Positions 5,611 to 62,880 of a DNA stretch of 64,000 nt are shown piece by piece (within the stretch, counting starts at the first letter, position 1; each line of letters opens with the position of its first letter). Both the position numbers and the translations under genes were made by a program. A model generated the notes under the pieces. It had not been told where the DNA came from. It worked only from the letters and a program-made list of their open reading frames with translations, and searched no databases. This stretch comes from Octopus vulgaris (taxonomy: Eukaryota), in the NCBI GenBank assembly GCA_951406725.2, contig OX597816.1, positions 54,622,001 to 54,686,000 of the forward strand, given 5' to 3'.

Positions 5611-5826
5611 AGCAGCGAGCTGGCAGAACCGTTAGAACGCAGGGTGAAATGCTTAGCCGTATTTCGTCTGCCGCTACGTTTTGAGTTCAAATTCCGCCAA
5701 GGTCGACATTGCTTTGCATCCTGTCGGGGTCGATAAATTAAGTACCAGTGGGACACGGGTCGATGTAATCAACTAGTCCCCTCCCCCACATTTCAGGCCT
5801 TGTGCCTATAGTAGAAAGTATTATTA
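5611..5826 (+). mobile_element. tRNA-derived SINE family A
   Basis: gcgagctggcagaaccgttag (A-box-like), gagttcaaattcc (B-box-like), ggtcgataaattaagtaccag core; many homologous copies in the window. Confidence 0.9.
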
Positions 5827-12100: not shown

Positions 12101-12102
12101 GA

Positions 12103-12287
12103 GGCGGCGAGCTGGCAGAAACGTTAGCACGCCGGGCAAAATGCGTAGCCGTATTTCGTCTGCCGTTACGTTCTGAGTTCAAAATCCTTTCGGGGTCGAT
12201 TAAATAAGTACCAGTTACGCACTGGGGTTGATATAATCGACTGGGCCCCTCCCCAAAAATTTCAGGCCTGTGCCTTCAGCAGAAAAT
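12103..12287 (+). mobile_element. SINE family A (internally deleted) with ~16-bp TSD
   Basis: ggcggcgagctggcagaaacgttagcacgccggg head; flanks aattcttccacgtcgg (12086-12101) and aattctatcacgtcgg (12288-12303). Confidence 0.9.
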
Positions 12288-12946
12288 AATTCTATCACGT
12301 CGGCGTCTTATGACAGAAAGGAAATATTGAAACTGTAGTTTATGAAACAGCTGAAATCTTGAGAGTAGATTATGACTGAACTATAACGTTATAACAAGAA
12401 GCCATGGCTATTATACTTATAATTCTTTTCATTTTGTTTATCTTGAGTTTTGAAGATACTGTTGGCTCAAGATGCATTACACCTCTTTATTGATGTTGAG
12501 TGCTGCCTATTAGCAATTCGCATATTGATTTTTAGACAATGCGATCTATTGATTATAGAAAGTTTGAATAGCCCAGAGCATTTACCTTCGCTGTGCATGC
12601 ATTAGAAAACCTATTTAACATTATTACTGTGTGCCATCTGTGCAAGATATTGAGGTTGAAATAACGTAAACACTTTAACACTAATTTTTAAATAAATAAT
12701 TTCTTTTTTAAAAAAAGCATTAATTTGTTGGCCACCCATATTGATGTCTCTGCTTCACGTTTATTTTCTCGAAGATGATCTGCACGTTGCTAGAAAGCGT
12801 GAGTGGAAAGTTCAGGATAAAAGCAATTCTGCACAGAACTAGTCCGTACGTCTTTCTGTGCAGGCACACATACGTGAATACTGTCAGTCCTACATATGCA
12901 CATTACATTTTTATGTACATACATATTTATCTATTTACACACACAC

Positions 12947-13013
<67 letters not shown>

Positions 13014-15659
13014 GCTATTTCTCTACGTATTTAAAAATGTGCGTGCGCCTGTGTGTACGCATGTACGAGTTGGTTGACGTGTTTCTTGTGTCTAAACAAG
13101 GAAAAAGTTCAACCAACGGAAATTGCGACTTGAATATCTCTCAGCTGTTTACGTCTTTACTTCAACGCTCAACTGAACTCTAAATGACAACAAACTTCCT
13201 GGTATCAAAGCAGAGAAACTTCCCTTTCCCTTTCTCTCAACCAACACCCTACAAACATACTTTCATCTTTTTCACTTGTCTTTCTCGATCCTTCCTCCCT
13301 ACACACTCACTCCTCCTCTCTGTCTTTTATATCACATCATTGACATGACTTTCCAACCAAAAGAAAGCTCTGGAAAAACTTAATAAAGCCAAAAAGACCA
13401 AAGTAAATGACAGCATAGTGACAGCTAGAAAACCGAAATTTTGAAGTCACGGTTGACCCTTTCCATGTAAAAATGAATAAGTACGCAGTCTACTAAAATG
13501 TGTCACGCGATTGTTTTTATATATAATTTCACATAAATACAAGAATATATGTATATTTATATACGTGTATATAGATACTTATAAGCACACGCACACACGC
13601 GCGCGCACACGTACACACGCGCGCGCACACGTACAAATGGATAGTTATATAGTGAACAGATGAGATCCAGAGATACACGGTATAGAAAACACTTGGTAGC
13701 GCTCAAATGATTCGAACTTAGACTCCGATGTACGAGGGAACAATTCCGCATGCTAAAGAGTGGCTATAAGAGAAATCCAGGTCAGTAGATATAGAGGCAA
13801 TTAAATATAACGGCTTGGGTTCGACATACAGGTAAGTGATGATATACCGAGCAACAGAAACACTGGATCAATTTTCTTCTGAGGAATTCTGTTTGAAAGT
13901 AATTTTTGCGATAGAAACTGACAAGTCGTATCTCTAATCTTCCACTCTTGGCAGCAGAGTCTTTACTACAGCTTAGACTGAAATTAATGATGCTTTCATT
14001 GAATTAATGCTTATACGAGTTTACAATCGAAACCTCTTCTCACGCTCAAAACGAAAACACAGAATGAAAAAAAGTAAAACCTATCCAAACAATTATATAA
14101 ATTATCGGTACAGTTTTACAGAGCTCCTTGTAACTTTCTTCGGCATTTTTCACAAGAAAATTGTTTTACACATCCCCTCACCAAATAATATAGTGATTGA
14201 TAATATTAATTAAGAAAAATGTGCAAGAGATCAATCGATTTTTCTTTTGTCAAATTGAGAATTTTGGTATCTCAATGTAAGTGAGTTTCAAATTTAGATC
14301 TTCATAGTTTAAGAAATTAATCCTTTTGGACTTAATATTATTAAACAAGTCGTGACAATTAGTAATCAACTTAAATAATAGATTTTGAATATTTAATTGA
14401 AAGGCATTGTTAATGTGCAAAATAGTTAATTCTACAATAAATTTAAACTTTATTTCTTAATTAACAAATTAGCGTTGTTTGTTAACGAATTAACATTTAT
14501 ATAGCATTTATATAGTATTGCGTTTCACAGTTATATTTTGTTTGTTAGTTTCTCTTTGGTAACTTGGTATAAACTCCTACGCTTGATGAAATACCATATG
14601 GACCTATTCGAAATTATTTAGTCAATTATTAATTTAAGAAGTCGTTAACGTCATTTCGTTTAACGTCACACAACGTTGTTTTAATTAGCATAATTTTATT
14701 ATAACGTTGAACACACACACACAAAGTAAAGTAAAATTAATGCTAAATTTATATTTTCTTTTGATTCTTGTTCATGTTTCATCTATCAATTAATTCCTCA
14801 TATTTCGTCTATTTCCCAGTTGTCCTCTAAAGTATATTCCTAATGTGTCTCCCGTCTGCATCCATCCAGATGAAAGTTTTTTAATACACGACCATACTTC
14901 AAGTGTAAAAGGACGAAAATTGAAGAAACATTTTCTTTCTACTAACTATACCTTCTTTAATATATTGAGTACAATGGTTCTTTATTCGGTTTTCTATCGG
15001 AGAGTTACTGTTCTGTCGGTTATATTGGCGAGATATTAAATGAAAATTAAATTAAATTGAAACAAAATAAATAAATATTGTGGAAGAAAGAGGAAACTAA
15101 AAAACAAAGTTTGGTGGCAAACGACCTTTCTTACAATCTTCGCTTTGTAAGCATTCGTGATTTATCTCCCTTTTGCAAGGGTACACGAACCTAAATTGTG
15201 CACCATTGCTCGCTATAGATATATACAGATGTTACTGGAACAGTTCGCCCGGACGGCAACTAACCAATGCAATTCTGAAAAAATTATATCTTATCCCCAA
15301 AATATATAACGTGTTTAGCTGCCCCGAAAAATTGACTCGGAATAAAAAGAGCAGAACCAAAAATCTGGAAAGCCTTTCAAGCTTATTGATGGAAGATATG
15401 CACCAATGTAACTTTTCTGTTTGCTAATTGCCATCTTAAAGTTTATATGGTGACTTCTAGCAATACAAGGTTCTAGGTCTGAAAGGGATAAAATTGTATA
15501 ACGCAGCTGGAAGGATAGTCTGCAAGTGCCAACCAATAAACCGCAGCTACTCTTCCGGCCTTTCTAAAAAAATATTATTGACTAATTAGACTAAAAGCTG
15601 CTAAAATATTTTAATAATGACACAACGTTTTGTTCTAAACGCTAACGTCAAAACGAACT

Positions 15660-15884
15660 TCTTTTCTTTCTTTCTCTTACTTGTTTCAGTCATTTGACTG
15701 CGGCCATGCTGGAGCACCGCCTTTAGTCGAGCAAATCGACCCCAGAACTTATTCTTTGTAAGCCTAGTACTTATTCTATCGGTGGGACTGAACCCGAAAA
15801 CATGTGGTTGGTAAGCAAGCTACTTACCACACAGCCACTCCTGTGCCTATGCCACTCCTGCGCCTATGCCACTCCTGCGCCTAT
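15660..15884 (-). mobile_element. SINE family B, internally deleted, with triplicated 17-bp 5' end
   Basis: Reverse complement of family B tail and head; gccactcctg(t/c)gcctat x3 at 15834-15884. Confidence 0.9.
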
Positions 15885-21066: not shown

Positions 21067-21224
21067 ATGTATACGTTTGTATATATGTTGTAGCCGTCCG
21101 TGAAATTTCTTTTGTGTGTATGTTTGTGTGGGTGCATGGGTTGGGTTCGTATGTTGATTATTTTTTCTATCTATCTCTATTTCTTATATTTACCACAGGT
21201 ATATGGCAAATATATTTATTTATT

Positions 21225-21640
21225 AGTCGCAGGATTGGCTGTTTGGTAAGTAGCTTGCTTACTAGCCACATGGTTCCAGGCTCAGTCCCACTGCGTGGCA
21301 CCTTGAGCAAGTGTCTTCTACTATAGCCTCGGGCCGACCAAAGCCTTGTGAGTTGATTTGGTAGACGGAAACTGAAAGAAGCCCGTCATATATATGCATA
21401 AGTATATATTTAAATGTATGTGTTTGTGTGTCTGTGTTTGTCTCCCCCTCCCCCAACATCGCTTGACAACTGATGCTGGTGTGTTTACGTCCCCGTAACT
21501 TAGCGGTTCGGCAAAAGACACCGGTAGAATAAGTACTAGGCTTACAAAGAATAAGTCCTGGGGTCGATTTGCTCGACTAAAGGCGGTGCTCCAGCATGGC
21601 CGCAGTCAAATGACTGAAACAAGTAAAACTCGTAAAAAAG
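21225..21640 (+). mobile_element. tRNA-derived SINE family B, near full length
   Basis: tggtaagtagcttgc..cagtcccactgcgtggcaccttgagcaagtgtc..ggcggtgctccagcatggccgcagtcaaatgactgaaacaagtaaaa. Confidence 0.92.
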
Positions 21641-27810: not shown

Positions 27811-28077
27811 AAAAATATTGAAGAAGTAATTCTCATTTCAACTAAAATAAAGTAAAATCACTGATTCTATTCTCCATCTTGCTGCATCGTCGCCATGGTT
27901 TCTGAAGGCAACGAACAGCATACACACATATACGCACACAGGCAGAAAATCACTGCCATACACAGGCATGTATGCACATGCATATACTCTCCTCGTTAGT
28001 ATAGTGTAGAGTATCCCCGAGTGCAACGCGGCAGACCGGAATTCGATTCCACGACGGGGAGGCGCGTTAATTGTCTA

Positions 28078-28460
28078 TAGGCAGAGGTGTGTTTGTGTGG
28101 TAGGAAGCTTACTTCCCAGCCGCATGACTTCGGGTTCAGTCCCAATGCATGGCATTCTGGGCAAGTGTCTTCTGCTATAGCCACGGGTTGACCAAATTTT
28201 TGTGAGTGGATTTGATAGACAAAGAAGCCCATCGCATACACACACATACACAATACACGCACACACACATAGATCGGTAGCCACTACACACATATTTTTT
28301 TCTCCTTGTTTCTCTCCTTGTTTTTTCTCTGTGTCCCTTTCTGTAGAAGAGCGTAGGCTCGAAACGTAAAAGACGTTTTCAGTTCCTGAGTGTTAAACTA
28401 ATACATCTGTTTGTTTTCTACAACACCTGTTTTCATCTATTGTTTTTTTTTGTGAACTCT

Positions 28461-28536
<76 letters not shown>

Positions 28537-28745
28537 GTGCCCGTATCTTTGTCTCTGTCGTCATATCACCGTTTGACAACCGGTGTTGGTGTGTTGACGA
28601 TGCGAAAACCGATGCGAAAAGTGTTAAGCTTTACAAAAATAAGTCCTGGGGTCGATTTGTTCGACTAAAAACCTTTCAAATCGCGCTGCTTCAGCATGGC
28701 AGCAGTGGAATAACTCAAACAAGTAAAAGTATTAATAAAAATAAA

Positions 28746-28750
<5 letters not shown>
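28078..28750 (+). mobile_element. Diverged SINE family B split at its internal microsatellite by a PLE-like insertion
   Basis: Head about 28078-28236 and tail about 28535-28750 are both collinear with the copy at 21225. Confidence 0.8.
28270..28463 (+). mobile_element. Short Penelope-like terminal-repeat element with variant hammerhead motif, ending in (TA)n
   Basis: CUUU-CUGUAGA-A-GAGC-GUAG-GCUC-GAAA-C-GUA-AAAG (28337-28372); stem I CUUU/AAAG. Confidence 0.65.
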
Positions 28751-28812
<62 letters not shown>

Positions 28813-28874
28813 GTATATATATATATTGTGTATATATATATACATATATACATATGTATATATATATACATATG

Positions 28875-28905
<31 letters not shown>

Positions 28906-31949: not shown

Positions 31950-33420
31950 CATATATCATTTCTTAACATGGGATTCCTTGACGACAATGTAAACTTCATC
32001 TGATTAAGGTGTCTTTGGCCTGACGAGTAACTCGTTGATTACTTCGCGTTTGGATAATTACTACTTTCGAGGTACTGCTGTCAAGGAAACATTTATTACA
32101 GTTATTAAGAGAGACTCTGTTACCCTTAAGAATATAGTTGTTATGCGAGTATATAATCTGCAGGACGTTATTGGTGTTGGAGAAGCCAATCCTGATACAG
32201 TGGATGTTGAAAGCTGAGTGGTGCCTGGAATTTATGGGAAAGATAGCTCGACGAAATAGGTAGGGAAAGTTACTTTAACTTGTTTTCCGTGTGGAATAAT
32301 CAACTAGATATTTTTACTAGGGTTATACGATTTATGGAGCGATTTATTATTAAAAAAACCTAAGTTTTTTTTCTTTAAATGGGAAAATGATGAGGAAGTA
32401 TAGTTACTTCCCTTCGACTGTTAGTTTTCAAAATTACGAAGGTGAGCTGGCAGAAACGTTAGCGCACTGGGCGAAATGCTTAGCGGTATTTCGTCTGCAG
32501 CTACGTTCTGAGTTCAAATTCCGCCGAGGTCAACTTTGCATTTCATTCTTTCGGGGTCGATAAATTAAGTACAAGTTACGCACTGGGGTCGATGTAATCG
32601 ACTTAATCCGTTTGTCTGTCCTTGTTTGTCCCCTCTGTGTTTAGCCCCTTGTGGGTAGTAAAGAAATATATTTTGATGAAATGGGATATTATTCGGATTA
32701 TTGTCTACGGGAGGAACAAGGTGAACATTTTTGTTGCCATTGTGTCTATTACTATTAATAATATTATTACTATTATTATTGTTATAATTACTGCTATTAT
32801 TATCAATAGCGTAATTACTATCATCTATATGATTAGAAAAAGAGTTAGGTACAAGATGGTTATAATATTTAGTTTGTTCCTTATATCCTGCTTTATATAA
32901 GGTTGAATTATAGAAATCTGCGTTATTACTGAAAACGGTTTCATTTGCGTGGTCCTAAGTGTTATGTATTTAACCAAATTTTTTGTGATATTGGTAGGGT
33001 GGTTACTAAAAATGCTGATGTATTTCAGGTTTGTTGAAAGATTATGTTAGGGGAAACACAAGGCTGTATTTAAGTTGAGAGTAAGATCAAGGAAGTTAAC
33101 CTTAGTTCTACCATCATCGAAGGTAATACTTAGGCCCATATTACTACAGAATTTGACAAGATTGCGTTTAACTTTTTGTAGTTTTTGATTAGAGATATTT
33201 TGGAGGTAAAGGAGGCAGTCATCTCGATATAAACCACCGAGTATATATGGAAATTGGTCATCCATTTTTGATAGAATATGAATACCGACCAAATTAGATA
33301 TGTGAGCGCAGTTGCTACTACCCTAAGGGATATCAAAACAGTTGGGTCGATCTTTACCAAGTCAAAATTTGTTATAATGGATTTTCTAGCCGCTAGAACA
33401 ACATAAATTTCATCATCCTG
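31950..33420 (-). pseudogene. Decayed Penelope-like element reverse transcriptase (palm, thumb and linker), interrupted by a SINE
   Basis: ORF 33047-33292 GLYRDDCL..KVNFLDLTLNL; downstream manual translation YISIFSNHP..FYNSTLYKAGY and FNIHCIRIGFSNTNNVLQIIYSHNNYIL, typical of PLE RT-to-GIY-YIG linkers. Confidence 0.75.
32439..32668 (+). mobile_element. SINE family A, full length, young
   Basis: ggtgagctggcagaaacgttagc..gagttcaaattccgccgagg..ccccttgtgggtagtaaagaaata. Confidence 0.92.
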
Positions 33421-39039: not shown

Positions 39040-39310
39040 GCTAATTAATTATCAATGTATTAACTAATTATTTCTGTGACAATTACTGTTACTGTAATTA
39101 CCTAATTGTCATAGTAACAGATATTGTCGTTGGTGTCACTAATTATAACAACACCTCTCATTATCGCTGTGACATGAAGTCATTCCAATAACAGTTATTA
39201 CCACTGTAATAACTAATTGTCACTCTAATAACTACACTGTCACAACTAATTATTTTTGTAACAGATATTGTCACTCTTCTAACTAATTATCATTCTAATA
39301 ATTAATTATT
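39040..39310. repeat. Degenerate ~20-21-bp minisatellite (taactaattgtcactgtaa-like)
   Basis: Recurring actaatt(a/g)t and gtaacagatattgtc motifs. Confidence 0.6.
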
Positions 39311-39314
39311 AGAT

Positions 39315-39498
39315 TCAAATTTTGGCTCAAGGCCAGCAATTTCGGGGAAGTATTCAGATGGTACTTATTTTAAAGACGCCGAAAGGAAGACAGGCAAAGT
39401 CGACTTCAGCAGAATCTGAACTCAGAACGTACGACAGACGAAATGCTGTTAAGTATGTTGTCCGGCGTGCTAACGATTCGGCCAATTCGCTCGACGCC
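39315..39498 (-). mobile_element. Diverged SINE family A
   Basis: ggtacttatttt..ggcaaagtcgac..gaactcagaacgtacgacagacgaaat..ccggcgtgctaacg. Confidence 0.8.
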
Positions 39499-39782
39499 TC
39501 ACTGTAATCTATATAATAATCTACGTGTTCGTTCGCCCGTTATACTTTTGTTAGAGAAGTGGAGAGAGAGATAGAGAGAGAGAGGAGGGTGGAGAAGATT
39601 GTGAGTAAAGAAGAAAGAAGTAGAGAAAGATATATAATAAGGCTAAGTGCATTACCAGGCGAAGAGCAAGAGAGAAAAGAGGGAAAGAGAAGTGTTAATG
39701 GCGTGCTGTAGACTGGGGTGTGAAAGGTAAATAGAGAGAGAGATATGTTTAGGATACAATATTTAGTAGAGGGTAAAGAGAA

Positions 39783-39988: not shown

Positions 39989-40613
39989 GGTGATAGTAGT
40001 AGTGGTGGTGGTAGTAGTAGTGGTGATGGTGGCGGTGTGTTGATAGTGAAAATATATTGTTTTATTGAAGTAAATATTATTCTTTTACATGTTCGCTCAC
40101 ACTTTACGGTTTAATTTGTTAGAGATGAGGAGGAGGTGGAGTGAGAGAGAAAGAAAAAGAGAATGTGATAGTGAGTGAGTGACCAGATAGCCAGTTGGTG
40201 CACTCATGTTGTCACTCATGTGGTTAGTAGAAGTGAGCGGTGAAAGAGAAAGAGAGAAATGTTAAAGACATGAAGAGAGGAATTACATGGATAAAAAGTT
40301 TATAGAAGTAAAGAGAAAGAGAGAAATATAAAGTGCTTCGCAGAAAGAAATTTTATAATCATATAATATATAATTGGGACTTAATGTGGAATATCGATGC
40401 ACCGATATATAGACTTTCAATGTAGTTATCTTCCGATCATAAACTGTAGGTACTAAGGCCGAAATAGGCCAAGTGGTCAGGATTGCCGACGTCTATGTGA
40501 GGGTGTATGTACGGGTATGTGTTGATGTGAAAGTGTGAGTGTATATGCCTATACGAATCCAGTCCTAGGTTACTAAGTATATCAATCCTTGGCCCACTAG
40601 ACGTTTTAGCCTG

Positions 40614-40670
<57 letters not shown>

Positions 40671-40814
40671 CATAAATGAGGGCAAAGGAAAAAAAATTCT
40701 AATGCCAAATATGCCGAAAAATTGGACATATTGTCCATTAACCATATAATTTTTTCACAATACGCACGCTACTCGAAAAAAGGTCGACAGAAATTTCTAA
40801 AAAATTCCATTATT

Positions 40815-40877
40815 ACCATATCGGACCGATTTCAGAGTTAGCTACTAAGAGCCCTCTCTTCGTCAGTGATACATGTG
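40815..40877 (-). ncRNA. Type-I hammerhead ribozyme motif, copy 1
   Basis: Minus strand UGUAUCA-CUGACGA-AGAG-[18 nt]-CUCU-GAAA-UCG-GUC-CGAUAUG: intact CUGANGA/GAAA/GUC core, stem II AGAG/CUCU, stem I UGUAUC/GAUAUG. Confidence 0.6.
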
Positions 40878-41398
40878 GCAAAAGAAATAAATGAGATACT
40901 TACTCATACCCATGGAAGAAGCAAATACTAAGTCATAGGCAAAACTAAGTACCCCCAAATACATCCAAAATAGAAATAATCCAGCCCATTCGAGGCACGT
41001 GCGATTTGAACTGAGGCTCTCACAGAGTGAGTTAGTTAGTTCGGAAGTGAACGCTTAAATTTATATCAAATGTGAGGATAAAATTCTTTTCGAAAAAAAA
41101 TATTTTCTCGAAAAGAATCTTATCAATGGCCAGCATATTGAAAAATACCTTTAACGGTTAAATTTATAAACAATTCATAAATGAGGGCAAAGGAAAAAAA
41201 TTTCTAATGCCAAATATGCCGAAAAATTGGACATATTTTCCATTAATCATATAATGTTTTCACAATACGCACGCTACTCGAAAAAAGGCTGGAGTATTTC
41301 TATTTTGGATGTATTTTGGGTACTTAGTTGTGCCCATGACTTAGTATTTGCTTCTTCCATGGGTATGAGTAAGTATCTCATTTATTTCTTTTGCCACA

Positions 41399-41456
41399 TG
41401 TATCACTGACGAAGAGAGGGCTCTTATTAGCTAACCCTGAAATCGGTCCGATATGG
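41399..41456 (+). ncRNA. Type-I hammerhead ribozyme motif, copy 2
   Basis: tgtatca-ctgacga-agag..ccct-gaaa-tcg-gtc-cgatatg. Confidence 0.55.
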
Positions 41457-41738
41457 TAATAATGGAATTTTTTAGAAATTTCTGTCGACCTTATTTCGAG
41501 TAGCGTGCGTATTGTGAAAAAATTATATTGTTAATGGACAATATGTCCAATTTTTCGGCATATTTGGCATTAGAATGTTTTTCCTTTGCCCTCATTTATG
41601 AATTGTTTATAAATTTAACCGTTAATGGTATTTTTTAATATGCTGGCCATTGATAAAATTCTTTTCGCGAAAATATTTTTTTTCGAAAAGAATTTTATCC
41701 TCACATTTGATATAAATTTAAGTGCTCTCTCTCTCCCG

Positions 41739-41769
<31 letters not shown>

Positions 41770-43462
41770 ATGCAATATAACACATATGTCTGTAAGTGTA
41801 TGTGTATGTTCCTGTATGTAATGGCTGGAAACAGGCTAATTTGCTATGTTCCTGTTCCATGAGAAAAAATATTTCGCGGTTTTTGTTGCCGTTCTTTAAC
41901 TTCTGTATTCAAATCGTGAAGTTTGCCTTTCCTTTCTCCTTTAATGAAATACCGATCTAGTAGTTAGCTTGGTGGCATCGGCTGAGTCCCATTTGCTAAA
42001 AATTGTTAGCCTTCTGTCCAAATTAGAAACAATGACACATATCAATACAGATTCACATACACCTCTCACGAGACACTGAAACCTACATCCAGACATACTC
42101 ACACACATAGAGTATACGTTTACTTGTTAGCGTCAGCAAAGAAAAAAATACTCAATCTAGTTCGAGAAAGTATCATTATGCATATGAGTGTGTGTTTTAA
42201 TTGTGTTAGTGTGAAATTCATGTATATTTTGTTATTAATGCACCTCATACTAGTGTAGACGAAAGGTGTTTCAATCGTTACCATTTTGTCATCTACGAAT
42301 GTACAGGGAACTCACGCGCACTTTAATGAGAGAGAGAGATTGGAAAGTTACACACTCGACCGTAAAACAACATCTCAAATATATTTGAGTCACACAATGG
42401 AGCTTGAAGGGCCTTGATGCATAAATTAACAACCGACAGACACTCGCCCACTACTAGATATATACTTTGAACACATAAGCACAAAACCTCAAAAGTGTGG
42501 CGGAGGATATGTACGGCTAAGTCGATGAACACACTGTATAACAGGTACTGAAGTATAGGTGCTGTTTATTAGATAATTAAATGTGGAACGTAATCGAGCG
42601 AAATGGTTTTCGCAGACATCGTCTAGTCTAGAAATGTTAGCGAAGAAATTATGATTAAAACTGGAATAAAATGAATCAAATGCTGAAGCTCTGTGAAAAC
42701 TTTAATGTTCAGAGACATGAAGTAAATGTTTCGAAACTGGAATATTTTGTTGATTTAAGAAGAAAGACTAGAAAAAAAAAAAGAAGAAAAGAAATCAATG
42801 CTTTATCACCAGTTGTAACCGGTTTGAATCAGTAAGTCACACTATATTGTTTTTATGATGAGTTCATTAGAAGTAAATAACCGGAGAAAACCAGATTGCC
42901 TACAGCTAACTGATGGTTTCTGAACAAAGAAAAGATAACAAAGAACGTCACGCAGAAGAACATAGCAACAACAACAACAACAACAATCAAAAGAAAAAAA
43001 GCATAAGCAATAGCTTTCATTAATACTTTCATAAACTATTGTTCTAATTACTTGCAAAAATCGATAAAAATAGGTAAAGCTAATATTGATTTAACTTTTA
43101 TGAAAGAAATGAAACGCTGTAAACACATTAAAAGCGAATATTTAAAAATTTCAAATATAACATTGTTTTGATTTCTCTCGGAGATCGATACTGCAAAGAA
43201 AGAAGCAAGAGAAGAGCAACGAGAGATAAATAGCCGGAAGATAACTAAATTATCTCCGACATTTATCTCTGGCTATGGCACAATGGAGAATTTGATGTTT
43301 TGACGTCAAATAATGGGTCACGTGACACTATGGTACTTGCTGCGCTGACGAGAGAATCCTAACGGACGACTTTCTCTTGTTCGTTCTTACTATTACTGAC
43401 ATCCATATTTGCCTAACATCAGCATTTTCATACGACAGTGCGGGACAGGATATATGTCATTG

Positions 43463-50334: not shown

Positions 50335-50530
50335 TTTCCAATTTGGCACCAAGGCAGCAGTTTCGGGTCGATCAGTTTAATCCTAGTATGTAATTGGTAC
50401 TTATTTTGTCAACTCTGAAAGGATGGAAGGCAGAGTCGACTTCGGAATTTGAACACAGAACGTAAAGACGAACGAAATATGGCTGAGCATTTTGTCCGAT
50501 GCGGTAACGATTCTACCAGGTCGCGGCCTA
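50335..50530 (-). mobile_element. Diverged SINE family A
   Basis: ggtacttattttgtcaac..gaaaggatggaaggcagagtcgac..gaacgtaaagacgaacgaaat. Confidence 0.8.
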
Positions 50531-51426
50531 CCTAAAGTCATTAATAATAAAAATTATATGAAATAGTTTGAACCGAATGGTGGTTTGGTTTATTAGAAAC
50601 TAAAGGCAATCTCCACAATATATGTTAGTGTATCGATTTCCGATATTGACTTAAATCAGGAGAAGGAGGGGTGAAATATCCTTCACGGTTCACTGATGTT
50701 GAATTTATCGATCACAGAAAAAAAAAAGCTAAAAAAACATCGACGGAATTTGGATCTAGAATTAGGAAGAATGAAACTAAATATTGCGATCAACTGGCGA
50801 TTCTGCCAATCTTCCGCCCTCGTATTGTTTTACTATAATCTAAGAACTCGATTCTTCATATCCAATTCTATGTTCTCGTGGAACTTTCTCAAAGAAAGCA
50901 GAAGTTCTATTTTTGACAGCAAACTGTTAAGATGTAGACATTTCAAATACGGCTAATATCTGCTTATGGAAAGACAGAATAATTACAAGAATGGTTTTCT
51001 GCAAAGATGTCAAACAATCTATAGTTTTCCTTAGGGAAACGTCAATATGCGGCAGAGTTTCGAAAAGTTGGCTTCCTTCCAGACGCCTCTTTCATATCAA
51101 AAATTTCGCTTTCAGTGAAATTATATCGGATATATAATACGTTGTTGACCGGCCAATGATCTGCTAAAAATAAAAATTATCAACTGAAAATCTTTTGCTT
51201 GAGAAAATTTGGAAGTAGTTTTTGTAGAATATGTTTCATTCAAAAATAAATGAATTCCACCGTTTATATTGAATAATTAAGAAAACAAAATGTAATTTCA
51301 GAATATGTTGAGTTAACAATAATTTCTATTACCTTAGACATGTTAGAATGAGAGGCAGTAAACAGCCTCAGGAGACGAGACACATTGTAGGGTTTTAAAT
51401 TATCGGGATATATCATAAAATAGGGA

Positions 51427-51585: not shown

Positions 51586-51996
51586 TATTTCTTTATTGTC
51601 CATAAGGGGACAAACATAGAGAGGACAAACAAGAACATACAAAGGGATTAGTCGATTACATCGACCCCAGTACGTAACTGGTACTTATTTAATCGACCCC
51701 TAAAGGATGAAAGGTAAAGTCGACCTCGGCGGAATTTGAACTCAGAACGTAACGGCAGACGAAATACCAATTTCTTTACTACCCACAAGGGGCTAAACAG
51801 AGAGAGGACAAACAAGGACAGACAAACGAGTTAAGTCGATTATATCGACCCCAGTGTGTAAATGGTACTTATTTAATCGACCCCGAAAGGATGAAAGGCA
51901 AAGTCGACCTCGGCGGAATTTGAACTCAGAACGTAACGGCAGACGAAATACCGCTAAACATTTCGCCCGGTGTGCTTAACGTTTCTGCCAACCGCC
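51586..51996 (-). mobile_element. SINE family A head-to-tail dimer (full unit plus headless unit) within one TSD
   Basis: Units about 51586-51768 and 51769-51996; flanks ccttgtatatatatt at 51571-51585 and 51995-52009. Confidence 0.9.
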
Positions 51997-52634: not shown

Positions 52635-52711
52635 TATATATACATATATTTTTAACAAGTTAACTGGTTCATTGGGACATCAGCGCCTTTCTGGTACTAA
52701 TTTTGTATATA

Positions 52712-53104
52712 GGCGCAGGAGTGGCTGTGTGGTAAGTAGTTTGTTTACCAACCACATAGTTCCGGGTTCAGTCCCACTGCGTGGCACCTTGGGTAAGTGT
52801 CTTCTACTATAGCCTCGGGCCGACCAAAACCTTGTGAGTGGATTTGGTAGACGGAAACTGAAAGAAGCCCGTCGTATATATGTATTTATATATGTATGTG
52901 TGCGTGAATGTTTGTGTGTCTGTGTTTGTCCCCCTAGTATTGCTTGACAACCGATGCTGGTGTGTTTATGTCCCCGTCACTTAGCGGTTCGGCAAAAGAA
53001 AACGATAGAATAAGTACTGGGCTTACAAAGAATAAGGCGATTAAAGGCGGTGCTTCAGCATGGCGGCAGTCAAATGACTGAAACAAGTAAAGAGTAAAGA
53101 GAGT
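52712..53104 (+). mobile_element. SINE family B, full length
   Basis: ggcgcaggagtggctgtgtggtaagtag..gggttcagtccc..gactgaaacaagtaaagagtaaaga. Confidence 0.92.
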
Positions 53105-55703: not shown

Positions 55704-55812
55704 GTCACCTGATGAGGCTCCTTTGCACTGTGAAATGCAAATGATGTCATTATACCAATCCCCACCCACTATGGAGCAAGGCAGCAGGTAGCCGAAACGA
55801 TTGTTGTGGTGA
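55704..55812 (+). ncRNA. Hammerhead-like motif with an extended structured stem II, in a probable PLE terminal repeat
   Basis: GUCAC-CUGAUGA-GGCU-[70 nt]-AGCC-GAAA-C-GAUU-GUU-GUGGU, followed directly by AATAAA. Confidence 0.55.
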
Positions 55813-56483: not shown

Positions 56484-56970
56484 CTACTGTCTGGTAAGAA
56501 GGTTGCTCCTAAAGCTTATGGTTTCAGGTTCAGTCCTACTGCGTGACACCTCAGGTTGGCACATTTATTATAGCCCCAAGGTGACCAAAGAATTGTGAGT
56601 TAATATCGTCGAGAGAAACTTAAAGAAGTCTCTCTTGTATCACTCTCACTCACTCACTCACTCACTCACTCACTCATTCACTCAGTTTGTCTGTCTGTCG
56701 ATATGCATGTTGTATGTATGACTGTGTATGTGTGTGTATGTGCATGCGTCTGTGTCTTTTTGCGTTTGTGTTTGTTCCCTACCGCCGCTTGATAACCGGC
56801 GTTGGCTTGTTTACGCTTCAATGACTTAGCGGTCATGCAAAGTAAACGATATGATAAGTAGCAAACCAAAAAAAGAAAAAGCGTACTGAAGTCGATTTGT
56901 TCGACCAAACCCTTCAAAGCAGTGCGCCAGCATGGCCGTAGGCTAACGACAGAAACAATTGAAAGATAGA
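56484..56970 (+). mobile_element. Diverged SINE family B
   Basis: ggttcagtcctactgcgtgacacc..gtcgatttgttcgac..ccagcatggccg. Confidence 0.8.
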
Positions 56971-57003
56971 TAAGGTATGTATTAATCTTCTGTGAGTGTT
57001 CAA

Positions 57004-57200
57004 GGCGGAGAGCTGGCTGAGTCGCTAGCACGCAAGACAAAATGTTTAGTGATATTTCGTCAGCCTTATTTTCTGAGTTCAAATGCCACCGAGGACGACT
57101 TAACCTTTCATCGTTTTGGAGTCGACAAAATAAGTACCAGTTGAGCACTGGGTTTGATTTAATCGAACACCGCTGGAATTTTACCAAAATTTGAACCCAG
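57004..57200 (+). mobile_element. Diverged SINE family A
   Basis: ggcggagagctggc..ctgagttcaaat..gtcgacaaaataagtaccagttgagcactggg. Confidence 0.8.
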
Positions 57201-58202: not shown

Positions 58203-58953
58203 TTTTTTAAATTGCAGCACAAGACCAAAGCCTCCCCACCAGCAATTACCAAAAACATGTAATGAAAAGAAATATTACAAGTAACTGCAGAATATGTGGA
58301 GATGGACAAGAAACAATAAATCATATTATCTCTAGCTACCCAGTCCTGGCTAAGAAGGAATATATTCACAGACATGGCAGAGTTGGAACCTACATACATT
58401 GGAAGCTATGCCAACATTATGGAATAACAACAGAAAAAAGATGGTATAGGCACACACCAGAAAAGGTCACAGAAAACGAGAAAGCAACCATACTCTGGGA
58501 TATGCCAATACACACAGATAGAGAAATTAAGGCCAACAGACCAGATATAGTTGTCAGAGATCATGAAGAAAAAAAATGCTTTCTAATTGATGTATCAATA
58601 CCGGCAGATGACAACGTGTCTCTAAAAGAAATGGAGAAACTCTCAAAATACAAAGACCTGGAAATAGAGGTAACTAGAATGTGGAACCTGAAAACAGAAA
58701 CAATTCCTATCATTGTAGGTGCATTAGGCATGATAAAAAAATATTCAGACAAATACATAACAAAAACACCAGGACTTACAAACACATATAACATACAGAA
58801 AATTGCACTACTAGGCACTGCACACATCCTACGCAGAACACTTTCCATACAATAACCATCAGAGCATCACAACAAATCACAGCACATACCCAAGGCACAC
58901 AGAGCTGCGCTCGGTAGTGAAGTGAAAGCACGCTATAAAAATAAAACTACTGA
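58202..58953 (+). mobile_element. 5'-truncated, young Dong/R4-clade non-LTR retrotransposon in (TAA)n; open C-terminal frame with zinc knuckle and restriction-like endonuclease
   Basis: FLIAAQDQSLPT..CRICGDGQETINHIISSY (last knuckle Cys changed to Tyr)..RH..NRPDIVVRD..LIDVSIP..EKLSKY..IPIIVGALG, stop at 58855; ~100-bp 3' UTR then (TAA)n. Confidence 0.92.
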
Positions 58954-60419: not shown

Positions 60420-60575
60420 TTGAAATTTTGGGGATAGGAGTAAGTCGATTACATTGACTCCTTGGCTCAACTGGTAATTATTCCATTGAGTCCGAAAGAA
60501 TAAAAGTCTAAGGTGACACAAAGCAACATTTGATATCAGAATGTAAAGCAGGAAGAATTGAATTTTGTCCAGCAT
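60420..60575 (-). mobile_element. Highly diverged SINE family A
   Basis: aagtcgattacattgactcc..caactggtaatta..ccgaaagaataaaag. Confidence 0.6.
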
Positions 60576-60626
60576 AGTAACTTCGATTTAACAAGGTGCT
60601 TACATTATTCTTGTCTGGCACGTGTG

Positions 60627-60711
<85 letters not shown>

Positions 60712-60742
60712 GTCTGTCTGTCTGTCTAATATGTCTGTCTGA

Positions 60743-60830
<88 letters not shown>

Positions 60831-60831
60831 A

Positions 60832-60864
<33 letters not shown>

Positions 60865-60875
60865 ATCTATCTACC
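60627..60875. repeat. (TATC)n/(TGTC)n microsatellite
   Basis: Directly visible; forms the spurious N-terminal half of ORF 60558-61355. Confidence 0.95.
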
Positions 60876-60876
60876 T

Positions 60877-61625
60877 ACGGGCCGGGACCTATGGTCAACC
60901 TCCAGAGATCCCTGGCCTATCAGTGCTATCGAGAAGCGCTACCCGTTCGAGATAATCTCTACAGGCATGGCTCGAGAAACACGGAGCCGACCTATCCGAG
61001 ATGCGGTCAGAGCGAGGAAACCGTTCTGCAAGCACTCGTACAGTGTCCAACCATTTCCGACCTGTGTGCCTATGTCGAACGACTGCTACCGCGTGTGGGA
61101 CGAGTCAGTTTATCAACCGAGTCTATCGCGAATATTGTCGCGCCTCCTTCCTTGAAACGGGAAGGAAGAGGCATTTTCATCGTACTTGTGGCTATGGCGA
61201 AAGAATGTGTATGGAGGACCCATCTGAAAGGTCTAGAGACAAACAGTTTCCTTTCTGGTGAATCTCTCATCAACTTCTTCAAGTATCACTTGAAGAGGAA
61301 CGTGAGAGTAGAGAGGGAAGTTTTGTCTAGTGAATGTTTCAAAAAAGATAGGTGAATGTAGCAAGGATAGTACGTGTGATTGACGAAGCCACCTTGATCA
61401 TAATCCTATGAATCGAAAAGAAAAAGAAAGGAAAAAAGAGAGTCACTTACTGTAATGCGTTTTTTTGCATGACACTATTGCCCGAGGTTACCGTGGTCTC
61501 TTCTGTAGGCTTTTCTTTCCACGGATAAACATAATCTGTTTCCCTCTTTAGTGGCTCTGGAGTTTATTTTAGTATAAGCAGTACTGGTCAGCACCCTCCG
61601 TCACTTTTGTGACCTCTATTTATTT
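60877..61625 (+). pseudogene. 5'-truncated L1/Tx1-clade LINE 3' end (zf-RVT-like C-terminus plus 3' UTR)
   Basis: [35 protein letters not shown] (degenerate CxxC..ET..H..C knuckle)..AKECVWRT. Confidence 0.8.
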
Positions 61626-61923
61626 TGGCTATGTATGTATTTATGTATGTATGTATGTGTGTGTGTGTATGTATGTATATAAGTATGTATGTACGTACGT
61701 ACGTACGTACGTGTGTGCGTGTGTGTTAGAAAGAAAATTCGCTCATATAGTCCGTTCAATGAAGTCGTTGTTGTGGAATTATCTAATGAACCCATCTGGA
61801 ATATTGTTTAGTCACTCTCTTACTGGGAAGAGAAGAACATGCGATACTTTAGCGATATTTGAGACACTAACTCCGTCTACCTTCAAATATGTATATTATT
61901 TATACAGATATTTTATGTACTTA

Positions 61924-62349
61924 GGCGCAGGTGTGACTGAGTGGTAAGAAGCTTGCTTCCCACCACATGGTTCCGGGTTCAGCGTGACACCTTGCGCAGG
62001 TGCCATCCACTATTACCTCGGGCCAACTAAAGCGTTGTAAGCGGACTTAATAGACGGAAACTAAAAGAAGCCCGTCGTATACACACACACACACACATAT
62101 ATATATGCATATATGTATGTATGCATGTATGCATGTACTTGTGTGTCTGTGTTTGTTCCCCCACCATTGCTTGTCAACAGATGTTGGTGTGTTTACAGCC
62201 CCGTAACCTAGCGTCCTCGTAACCGATAGAATAAGTACTAGGCTTAGAAAGAATAAGTCCTGGGGTCGATTTGTTCGATAAAAGGCGGTGCTCCAGCATG
62301 GCCGCATTGGAATGACTGAAACAATTGAAAAAATAAAAGAATAAAAGAA
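61924..62349 (+). mobile_element. SINE family B, full length
   Basis: ggcgcaggtgtgactgagtggtaagaagcttgc..ggcggtgctccagcatggccgc..taaaagaataaaaga. Confidence 0.92.
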
Positions 62350-62462
62350 CATCAAGTCGGTTACATAACCTAGATATATTCAACAAGTATTTTGCACTGG
62401 ATATGTGGTCAATTTGCAGCACTCAAAACATAAATACTACTCTACCTTACAAAACCACTACC

Positions 62463-62880
62463 TATTTCTTTACTACCCACAAGGGGCTAAACACAGAGGG
62501 GACAAACAAGGACAGACAAAGGGATTAAGTCGATTACATTGACCCCAGTGCGTAACTGGTACTTACTTTATCGACCCGGAAAGGATGAAAGGCAAAGTCA
62601 ACCTCGGCGGAATTTGAACTCAGAACGTAGCGGCAGACGGAATACCTATTTCTTTATTACCCACAAGGGGCTAAACATAGAGGGGACACACAAGGACAGA
62701 CATAGGTATTAAGTCGATTATATCGACCCCAATGCGTAACAGGTACTTAATTTATCGACCCCCAAAAGAATGAAAGGCAAAGTCGACCTCGGCGGAATTT
62801 GAACTCACAACGTAACGGCAGACGAAATACCGCTAAGCATCACGCCCGGCGTGCTAACGTTTCTGCCAGCTCGTCGCCTT
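62463..62880 (-). mobile_element. SINE family A head-to-tail dimer within one 15-bp TSD
   Basis: Units about 62463-62646 and 62647-62880; tacaaaaccactacc at 62448-62462 and 62883-62897. Confidence 0.92.

What the first reader, a model, noticed from the sequence alone, without database searches (positions are those of the whole stretch)
40667..41724. 505-bp non-coding, circularly permuted, hammerhead-bearing unit inserted as 1.2 direct copies plus an inverted copy (retrozyme-like / non-autonomous PLE)
Seen: segment order A-B-C-D-A (A=40667-40783, repeated at 41172, period 505 bp), then a switch at a GG microhomology (41287-88) to inverted B'-A'-D'. Both halves carry an intact CUGACGA..GAAA..GUC hammerhead core reading outward, there is no meaningful ORF, and the flanks are microsatellites. 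On the sense strand segment C has a TCAGTT initiator-like motif (41009-41014, minus) and B has a GTAAGT donor-like motif just upstream of the ribozyme. Established: Penelope-like elements carry minimal type-I hammerheads in their pseudo-LTRs and integrate as partial-tandem or inverted copies; metazoan non-LTR retrozymes are short hammerhead-containing tandem units that yield circular RNAs. Inference: greater-than-unit-length, permuted cDNA is what reverse transcription of a ~505-nt circular or self-cleaved monomer RNA would give, so this may be an undescribed ribozyme-processed non-autonomous retroelement mobilised by a PLE RT/GIY-YIG enzyme.
Basis: partly seen in the sequence, partly recalled or inferred. 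Interest (0 to 1): 0.85.

Follow-up and report, generated by a model that had tools for sequence, protein, structure and literature searches.

The report
Hammerhead-bearing short Penelope-type mobile repeat
A 505-base non-coding repeat that carries a hammerhead-ribozyme motif is widespread and varied in this animal (likely an octopus), and here it sits as a partial tandem plus an inverted copy beside a TA microsatellite, so it is likely a parasite copied by Penelope-like retrotransposons, a new example of a kind already proposed in print.

Summary
The structure is real: a 622-bp arm (1.23 units of 505 bp) head-to-head with a 436-bp inverted arm, joined at GG, beside (TA)n. Public contigs show a large, diverse family (20 holder runs, 10 studies, 4 species labels; 4370 and 3582 contigs in the two large runs). 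They show compensatory changes in hammerhead stems II and III, other copies ending in (TA)n near the right arm's end, and the tandem junction in diverged contigs. No long ORF was seen joined to the unit, but the contigs are short. Architecture, TA target and ribozyme build match Hydra-clade Penelope-like elements (PLEs), and a Hydra-like RT remnant lies 7 kb away. Best reading: a non-autonomous, retrozyme-like element copied by a PLE enzyme that starts inside a longer-than-unit RNA. A circular template is possible but not needed: neither arm crosses two ribozymes. Cleavage, circular RNA and the partner element are untested. Retrozymes as PLE derivatives are in print; the scan noted two analogous tRNA-bearing units in other genomes, not this sequence.

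The parts
40614..40666 (.). (TA)n microsatellite abutting the left arm's 3' end; likely target site
   Evidence: no convincing target-site duplication
40667..41288 (-). Left arm, 622 bp = 1.23 units; sense order A2-D-C-B(ribozyme)-A1; runs from +36 after one predicted cut position to +152 after the next
40667..40783 (-). Segment A1 (3' end of left arm)
40814..40871 (-). Type-I hammerhead motif, left copy: stem I 40871-67/40818-14, core 40866-60 and 40833-30, stem II 40859-56/40837-34 plus 40853-50/40843-40, palindromic stem III 40830-27/40823-20; predicted cut between 40819 and 40818 (after AUA)
   Evidence: compensatory variants
40883..40966 (-). G-U-rich long hairpin upstream of the ribozyme, stable on the sense strand only; contains the GTAAGT donor-like motif (40898-40903)
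   Evidence: z -3.96 sense, +0.13 antisense; pairs
40987..41051 (-). Segment C, present only in the left arm; TCAGTT initiator-like motif at 41009-41014 (function untested)
41052..41171 (-). [quoted passage not shown]
   Evidence: (repeat score reached in 1 of 2000 shuffles)
41172..41288 (-). Segment A2, 5'-truncated upstream copy (pseudo-LTR equivalent)
41287..41288 (.). GG microhomology at the head-to-head inversion junction
41287..41722 (+). Right (inverted) arm, 436 bp; sense order B(ribozyme)-A-D; from -166 to +269 relative to the predicted cut
41401..41458 (+). Type-I hammerhead motif, right copy; predicted cut after 41453; one A-C mismatch in stem II
41652..41699 (+). Segment-D hairpin of the right arm, ending about 23 nt before the arm's 3' end
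41723..41770 (.). Right flank: (CT)n, (CA)n, short (TA)n

Best explanation
This is one insertion of a multi-copy, non-coding 505-bp element with a type-I hammerhead motif, likely mobilised in trans by the reverse transcriptase and GIY-YIG endonuclease of a Penelope-like element, probably of the Hydra clade. Shown: repeat geometry, absence of an ORF, family breadth, covarying ribozyme stems, recurrent tandem junction, TA-abutting ends. Inferred cycle: a tandem or partial-tandem copy is transcribed into a longer-than-unit RNA; the PLE protein nicks AT-rich or (TA)n DNA and starts reverse transcription inside the RNA at one of two similar motifs about 118 nt apart (+152 and about +260 to +270 after the ribozyme); one cDNA runs 622 nt, a second cDNA from the other strand runs 436 nt, and the two 5'-truncated ends are joined at a 2-bp microhomology. 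The ribozyme is predicted to cut after AUA, probably best as a dimer through its palindromic stem III, and would trim the RNA 5' end or release monomers; the downstream ribozyme in each template was uncut or religated.
For: Family: 20 of 24 listed runs hold the sequence, 10 studies, 4 species labels; 4 of these laid on one unit gave 4370, 3582, 146 and 96 contigs, all 30 bins covered in each, most at 90-99% identity. Ends: loose ends at 41103/41104 (18 and 22 contigs in X1; median loose length 15-18, so only some reach the repeat) and 41065 (1 contig, X16) run into TA-rich sequence at about +259 to +264, next to the right arm's +269. Tandem junction D-to-C is bridged by 4 of the 32 pieces shown, in 3 runs, with 1-8 differences. 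Share of contigs running on into unlike sequence: 0, 0, 0.05, 0.11. Ribozyme: in-phase double changes C-G to U-A in stem III (8 and 14 contigs, X1 and X2) and in distal stem II (8, 1 and 2 contigs in X2, X10, X16); 0 of 40 shown variant rows in the core, stem I or stem III, 8 in stem/loop II. Unit folds far better than shuffles (z -5.9 circular, 0 of 60; z -6.6 linear, 0 of 100). PLE signature: partial tandem, inverted 5'-truncated copy, tail at one end only (PMC8557442, passages); other opposite-strand joints in 3 contigs. Hydra clade: (TA)n target in 26 of 27 listed families, hammerheads with 3-4-bp palindromic stem III and 1-3-nt loop in all 26 rows, cut nucleotide A in 12 of 26 (supplement). 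A GLYRDD RT remnant at 32951-33322 hits an Octopus bimaculoides protein (70%) and proteins bearing the Hydra motifs RWK, DKT, CxCx5C. Internal RT starts downstream of the hammerhead, cleavage dispensable in vitro (PMC11167929).
Against: No autonomous partner sharing this sequence was found: no genome is held, the published Hydra-1_Obim 3' end and ribozyme differ by eye, and the window's RT remnant shows no similarity to the unit. All 26 Hydra hammerhead rows use a GUH triplet; this one uses AUA and an A-U pair at the base of stem II. The hammerhead fold is 7.6-8.1 kcal/mol above the predicted minimum as a monomer and Rfam does not score it. The 118-nt spacing is far longer than the 30-40-bp tail described. 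No pile of other copies ending at +152 was among the 24 of 422 loose ends shown. Contigs are about 100 nt, so a minority joined to an ORF would be missed; one 438-nt diverged contig has 173 unaligned nt upstream. 36 of 76 variant rows were not shown, so core changes are not excluded.
Confidence: 0.6

Rival explanations
1. Classical retrozyme cycle: tandem transcripts self-cleave into 505-nt monomers, a host ligase circularises them, and a PLE RT copies the circle past unit length. Same enzyme, different template.
For: Longer-than-unit arm with a seamless junction; strongly self-paired unit; covarying ribozyme; coral, mussel and axolotl retrozymes do form circles (PMC7229834, results and discussion); the model was proposed for PLEs (PMC4209133). 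Contigs in two RNA-guess runs bridge the cut site and the tandem junction, as a circle, an uncut RNA or DNA would.
Against: Neither arm crosses two ribozymes; the left arm stops 35 nt short of the upstream cut, which fits a linear RNA cut at its 5' end. The arms differ at two sites that are common family polymorphisms (40836, 40845), easier to explain from non-identical units than from one circle (weak). In a PLE tested in vitro uncleaved RNA was the main substrate. Only 1 of 9 predicted Xenopus retrozyme dimers cleaved.
Confidence: 0.2
2. These are only the 3' terminal pieces (pseudo-LTR) of a long autonomous PLE, stacked by repeated 5' truncation; no independent short element exists.
For: PLE insertions are mostly 5'-truncated, and opposite-strand hammerhead pairs 100-700 bp apart were already seen and read as truncated PLEs (PMC4209133). 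Depth is lowest at segment C and the D-to-C junction, so most copies lack or differ in it.
Against: The same D-to-C junction occurs in contigs of 3 runs with different variants; independent truncations would give variable junctions. Segments C-B do not translate into a PLE C-terminus (compared by eye). No consistent ORF-like loose end among those shown.
Confidence: 0.12
3. A satellite or MITE-like DNA repeat spread by DNA-level mechanisms; the hammerhead is an inherited relic and the inversion is a local rearrangement.
For: The 2026 preprint allows local tandem amplification by unequal crossover. Strong DNA palindrome in segment D.
Against: Sense-strand-specific G-U hairpin, compensatory changes in the ribozyme, polar ends in TA repeats, no terminal inverted repeats or target duplication of a unit.
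Confidence: 0.05
4. The inverted arrangement is an assembly chimera of two separate family copies.
For: The window's own joint was not among the 15 of 20 joints shown; PLE structures are known to trouble assemblies.
Against: Arms differ by 11 of 320 and 12 of 237 columns, unlike a fold-back artefact, yet share four minority alleles of the family (40857, 40926, 41115, 41155), as two products of one source would.
Confidence: 0.03

Closest known systems
Animal non-LTR retrozymes (Cervera and de la Pena 2020, PMC7229834; Li, Clavereau and Pollet 2026, 10.64898/2026.07.22.740005)
   Same: Short, non-coding, AT-rich unit with a type-I hammerhead; size within the 51-972 bp range; strongly self-paired; proposed PLE dependence.
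   Different: Here less than two ribozymes per arm (fails the preprint's 'active' definition); no target duplication; inverted 5' arm and TA targeting, which I did not see described for retrozymes in the sections read; helix II long and helix I short; circular RNA unshown.
Hydra-clade Penelope-like elements (Craig et al. 2021, PMC8557442), including Hydra-1_Obim of Octopus bimaculoides
   Same: (TA)n target; hammerhead near the 3' end with palindromic stem III and tiny loop; inverted 5'-truncated copy (noted for Penelope-13_HM).
   Different: No RT-EN ORF; AUA instead of GUH triplet; sequence unlike Hydra-1_Obim by eye; second 3' end about 118 nt further on.
Non-autonomous Chlamys elements such as MRC1 (PMC8557442, section read)
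   Same: Non-autonomous PLE derivatives that form pseudo-LTRs and head-to-tail copies in microsatellites.
   Different: Green algal; most Chlamys lack a canonical hammerhead; they share 3' sequence with a known partner, which is not identified here.
Poseidon PLE of Anolis (Frangieh et al. 2024, PMC11167929)
   Same: Insertion ends lie downstream of the hammerhead at two internal sites; AT-rich targets.
   Different: There the sites are 30-40 nt apart inside the ORF; here about 118 nt apart in non-coding RNA around a 22-bp hairpin.

Membership tests
Non-LTR retrozyme | Type-I hammerhead in the repeat unit | tested here: met
   Topology and core; covariation; not scored by Rfam
Non-LTR retrozyme | Non-coding, short unit, no LTR/PBS/PPT organisation | tested here: met
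   505 bp, longest Met ORF 34 aa; no tRNA gene in the window
Non-LTR retrozyme | Tandem arrays with at least two consecutive ribozyme-bearing units | tested here: inconclusive
   Not met at this locus (1.23 units); tandem junction exists in other contigs, which are too short to show two ribozymes
Non-LTR retrozyme | Self-cleavage and unit-length linear or circular RNA | not testable with these tools
   All runs are contigs; the RNA label is a guess
Non-autonomous PLE | Partial tandem (pseudo-LTR) with an inverted 5'-truncated copy | tested here: met
   definition from PMC8557442
Non-autonomous PLE | Preferred 3' end and microsatellite/AT-rich target across copies | tested here: met
   Loose ends into TA-rich DNA at about +259 to +264 in X1 and X16 (X10 contigs share the variant but are too short), right arm at +269; limited to 24 of 422 loose ends shown
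Non-autonomous PLE | Tail of 30-40 bp at one end only | tested here: inconclusive
   One-ended extension exists but is about 118 bp
Non-autonomous PLE | 3' sequence shared with an autonomous PLE of the same genome | not testable with these tools
   No genome held; no match to Hydra or Naiad consensi by three exact motifs or by eye
Autonomous PLE (Hydra or other) | RT plus GIY-YIG ORF | tested here: not met
Hydra-clade dependence | (TA)n target and hammerhead with palindromic 3-4-bp stem III | tested here: met
   triplet differs (AUA versus GUH)
Minimal PLE hammerhead (Cervera 2014) | No helix III, G10.1-C11.1 pair, bulged base after A9 | tested here: not met
   Helix III of 4 bp present, A-U at the base of stem II; it resembles the variant with small palindromic helix III

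The most novel reading that the evidence does not exclude
A very abundant octopus retrozyme family that rides on Hydra-clade PLEs and shows the PLE integration scar directly: two internal RT start sites about 118 nt apart bracketing a long hairpin, ribozyme-defined RNA 5' ends (one side of the inversion lies 36-56 nt after the cut in this locus and in 2 of 3 other inversion joints seen), and a 505-nt circular RNA. It would be a compact, ORF-free map of the cis-signals that a PLE reverse transcriptase needs.
Probability: 0.25. Interest if true: 0.62.

Novelty: new member of a known kind. Interest (0 to 1): 0.4.

Why it matters
The link between animal retrozymes and Penelope-like elements rests in print on co-occurrence and terminal sequence similarity. 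This family adds insertion-level evidence (inverted head, TA target, fixed internal 3' ends) and a likely clade of partner. With many diverged copies it could settle whether PLE templates are circles or read-through RNAs and what the hammerhead is for, which the papers read call unresolved. It does not establish a new class.

Tried and rejected
Rfam at gathering score on the window (0 matches) and at E up to 10 on 40600-41800 (28 matches, none a hammerhead). No whole genome is held, so no copy census. Exact-pattern scans: 0 loci in metagenome contigs and viral contigs. No run on record as RNA holds the stretch: no RNA holder listed, no evidence either way; the two RNA-guess runs may contain DNA. 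Summed contig depth (thousands to about a million) is not a copy number and was not used as one. No other copy of the unit in the window; a third CTGANGA..GAAAT at 55709 fails the stem test. Target-site duplication: none convincing; a 10-bp match 87 bp from the right end rejected. Cut after GUC rejected. An intron from GTAAGT across the ribozyme to an AG near 40798 was considered; no such joint among the 15 of 20 shown. Pair-keeping of variants (10 of 16 paired rows) exceeds a random-letter expectation of 3.7, but that null ignores transition bias, so only the in-phase double changes are counted as evidence. The protein atlas gave no result for the RT remnant; Pfam gave RVT_1 only at E 0.019. 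Literature searches listed no paper describing this family or a cephalopod retrozyme; the library lacks subscription journals and Repbase/Dfam were not searchable, so it may be annotated there. Supplements of PMC7229834, one file of PMC4209133 and the bioRxiv preprint could not be or were not read and may hold related elements.

Full report
1. Observation. The window is AT-rich, microsatellite-rich animal DNA. The described structure is there. Segment A (40667-40783) recurs 505 bp later (41172-41288) with 4 differences in 117. From 41287 an inverted arm matches 40654-40986 at 95.5% and 41046-41288 at 94.2%; it ends at 41722. The two arms share a GG at 41287-88. Read on the ribozyme strand, the left arm is A-D-C-B-A (622 bp, minus) and the right arm B-A-D (436 bp, plus); they are head to head with 3' ends outward. 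The left end abuts about 50 bp of (TA)n, the right end (CT)n/(CA)n. There is no ORF (longest Met-started 34 aa) and no second copy in the window.

2. The ribozyme. Both arms fold by hand into a type-I hammerhead: stem I 5 bp, CUGACGA, stem II 4 bp plus 4 bp beyond a 2x2 loop, GAAA, stem III 4 bp with a 3-nt loop. The triplet is AUA, with the cut predicted after 41453 (+) and 40819 (-). Stem III is palindromic and self-pairs between two molecules at -15.9 kcal/mol, the dimer arrangement described for PLE hammerheads (PMC4209133, results and discussion read). As a monomer the hammerhead fold is 7.6 (left) and 8.1 (right) kcal/mol above the minimum-energy fold, and the right copy has an A-C mismatch in stem II. 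My descriptor gave 2 hits in the window, both this element, and a hit in 1 of 100 block-shuffled windows. Rfam did not score it.

3. The family. No genome is held, so I used public runs. 20 of 24 listed runs hold part of the stretch (shares 0.27-0.59), from 10 studies and 4 species labels; none is on record as RNA. I laid 4 of the 20 on one unit (40725-41229): 4370, 3582, 146 and 96 contigs, all 30 bins covered in every run, identities spread from 99+ to under 90%. The output showed 40 of 76 variant rows, 15 of 20 joints, 24 of 422 loose ends and 32 of 8364 pieces, which limits what follows. (a) Ends: loose ends at 41103/41104 (18 and 22 contigs in X1, from copies lacking part of the D hairpin; median loose length 15-18, consensus agreement 0.62-0.78) and at 41065 (1 contig in X16) run into TA-rich DNA at about +259 to +264 after the cut; the right arm ends at +269. 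No pile at +152 was shown. (b) Junction: depth is lowest across D-to-C, but 4 shown pieces in 3 runs bridge it with 1, 3, 4 and 8 differences, so the longer-than-unit form is heritable and not private to this locus. (c) No ORF-like continuation was shown; the share running on into unlike sequence was 0, 0, 0.05 and 0.11. The contigs are about 100 nt, and one diverged 438-nt contig has 173 unaligned nt upstream, so a long partner is not excluded. (d) Three other opposite-strand joints occur; in two, one side is 45-56 nt after the cut, as here (36 nt); direction is not given and the numbers are tiny. (e) The 505-nt 'goes back' joint only reflects where I cut the reference. (f) Covariation: C-G to U-A in stem III in phase (8 and 14 contigs) and C-G to U-A in distal stem II in phase (8, 1, 2 contigs); the A-U pair of stem II is often G-U or G-C (phase unknown). 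None of the 40 shown rows hits the core, stem I or stem III.

4. Other RNA structure. The unit folds at z -5.9 as a circle (0 of 60 shuffles) and -6.6 as a line (0 of 100). Two hairpins drive this: a G-U-rich one upstream of the ribozyme, stable on the sense strand only (z -3.96 versus +0.13), and a 22-bp one in D. Both arm ends fall in an imperfect direct repeat that brackets D (score reached in 1 of 2000 shuffles; the comparison was chosen after seeing the ends).

5. Mechanism. PLE insertions are partial tandems, often with an inverted 5'-truncated copy and a tail at one end only (PMC8557442, passages, sections 10 and 11 and supplement parts read). In the one PLE reconstituted in vitro, RT started inside the RNA at two sites downstream of the hammerhead, both target strands were cut and extended at AT-rich DNA, and ribozyme cleavage was dispensable (PMC11167929, main text read). 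That accounts for every feature here: ends at +152 and +269, D as a long tail, two outward-facing arms. Neither arm crosses two ribozymes, and the left arm stops 35 nt short of the upstream cut, so a linear read-through RNA suffices; a circle would also fit. The arms share four minority alleles of the family and differ at two common polymorphisms, which fits one event from one source lineage, perhaps from two non-identical units. All enzymatic steps are inferred.

6. Likely partner. Hydra-clade PLEs insert in (TA)n (26 of 27 listed families) and carry a hammerhead near the 3' end (by my arithmetic from the table mostly 35-155 nt before it) with a palindromic 3-4-bp stem III and 1-3-nt loop in all 26 rows. 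One is from Octopus bimaculoides. This element has the same build but an AUA triplet where those rows have GUH, and does not resemble Hydra-1_Obim by eye. A broken RT remnant at 32951-33322 (-) gave 17 hits among 68 candidates: an O. bimaculoides protein at 70% and others at 35-39%; the two full-length ones I read carry the Hydra motifs RWK, DKT and CxCx5C. So Hydra-like PLEs have been in this genome, which is likely an octopus; the actual partner is unidentified, and Naiads also target (TA)n though they lack canonical hammerheads.

7. Comparison and novelty. Animal non-LTR retrozymes are short hammerhead repeats that yield circles (PMC7229834, results and discussion read); a 2026 preprint (abstract to discussion read) argues they are non-autonomous PLE derivatives, 51-972 bp, often monomers. 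Non-autonomous PLEs with pseudo-LTRs are described in Chlamydomonas and mentioned in butterflies (passages). Opposite-strand hammerhead pairs were noted in 2014. The element works like these. It meets the sequence-level tests for a non-autonomous PLE; retrozyme membership is open because arrays, cleavage and circles are unshown. My searches listed no description of this family; repeat databases could not be searched. The scan's notes hold no look-alike sequence and two analogous tRNA-bearing units elsewhere (unchecked).

8. Verdict. Real feature, new member of a known kind. Interest 0.4: not surprising to a specialist as a class, but a large family that shows the PLE integration signature and could make the template question (circle or read-through RNA) testable.

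Noticed in passing
window 32880-33400 (-): Broken PLE reverse-transcriptase remnant (GLYRDD motif, thumb), one stop and one frameshift, followed by low-complexity sequence and a SINE-like repeat; Hydra-like by motif and by its hits. Its best hit, P0001, is named a GATA zinc finger-like protein by its source, which looks like a mis-annotation of a PLE fragment.
   Followed up: partly
window 51586-51990 (-), 62459-62872, 32444-32668, also 5612-5820, 12102-12288, 39358-39499, 50367-50534, 57002-57166: Abundant SINE-like family (resembles octopus tRNA-derived SINEs; name recalled, not tested). Two copies carry a tandem duplication of their 3' 183 bp.
   Followed up: partly
window 21207-21628, 52701-53098, 61905-62347, 28071-28888, 15658-15850, 56727-56964: A second interspersed family of about 420 bp with an internal TA/TG microsatellite.
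   Followed up: no
window 58211-58855 (+) and 60534-61355 (+): 3' fragments of non-LTR retrotransposons, weak zf-RVT matches (E 0.0015 and 0.0078, below cut-off).
   Followed up: partly
window 39042-39308: Degenerate AT-rich minisatellite with a 51-bp imperfect inverted repeat.
   Followed up: no
loose ends at 41029-41030 and piece 19 of X16: Subfamilies differ in segment C and in the length of the D hairpin; one 438-nt contig at about 86% identity has 173 unaligned nt upstream of B, a lead to the partner element or to a diverged subfamily.
   Followed up: no
window 55709-55760 (+): CTGATGA..GAAAT core-like spacing without supporting stems; probably chance.
   Followed up: yes
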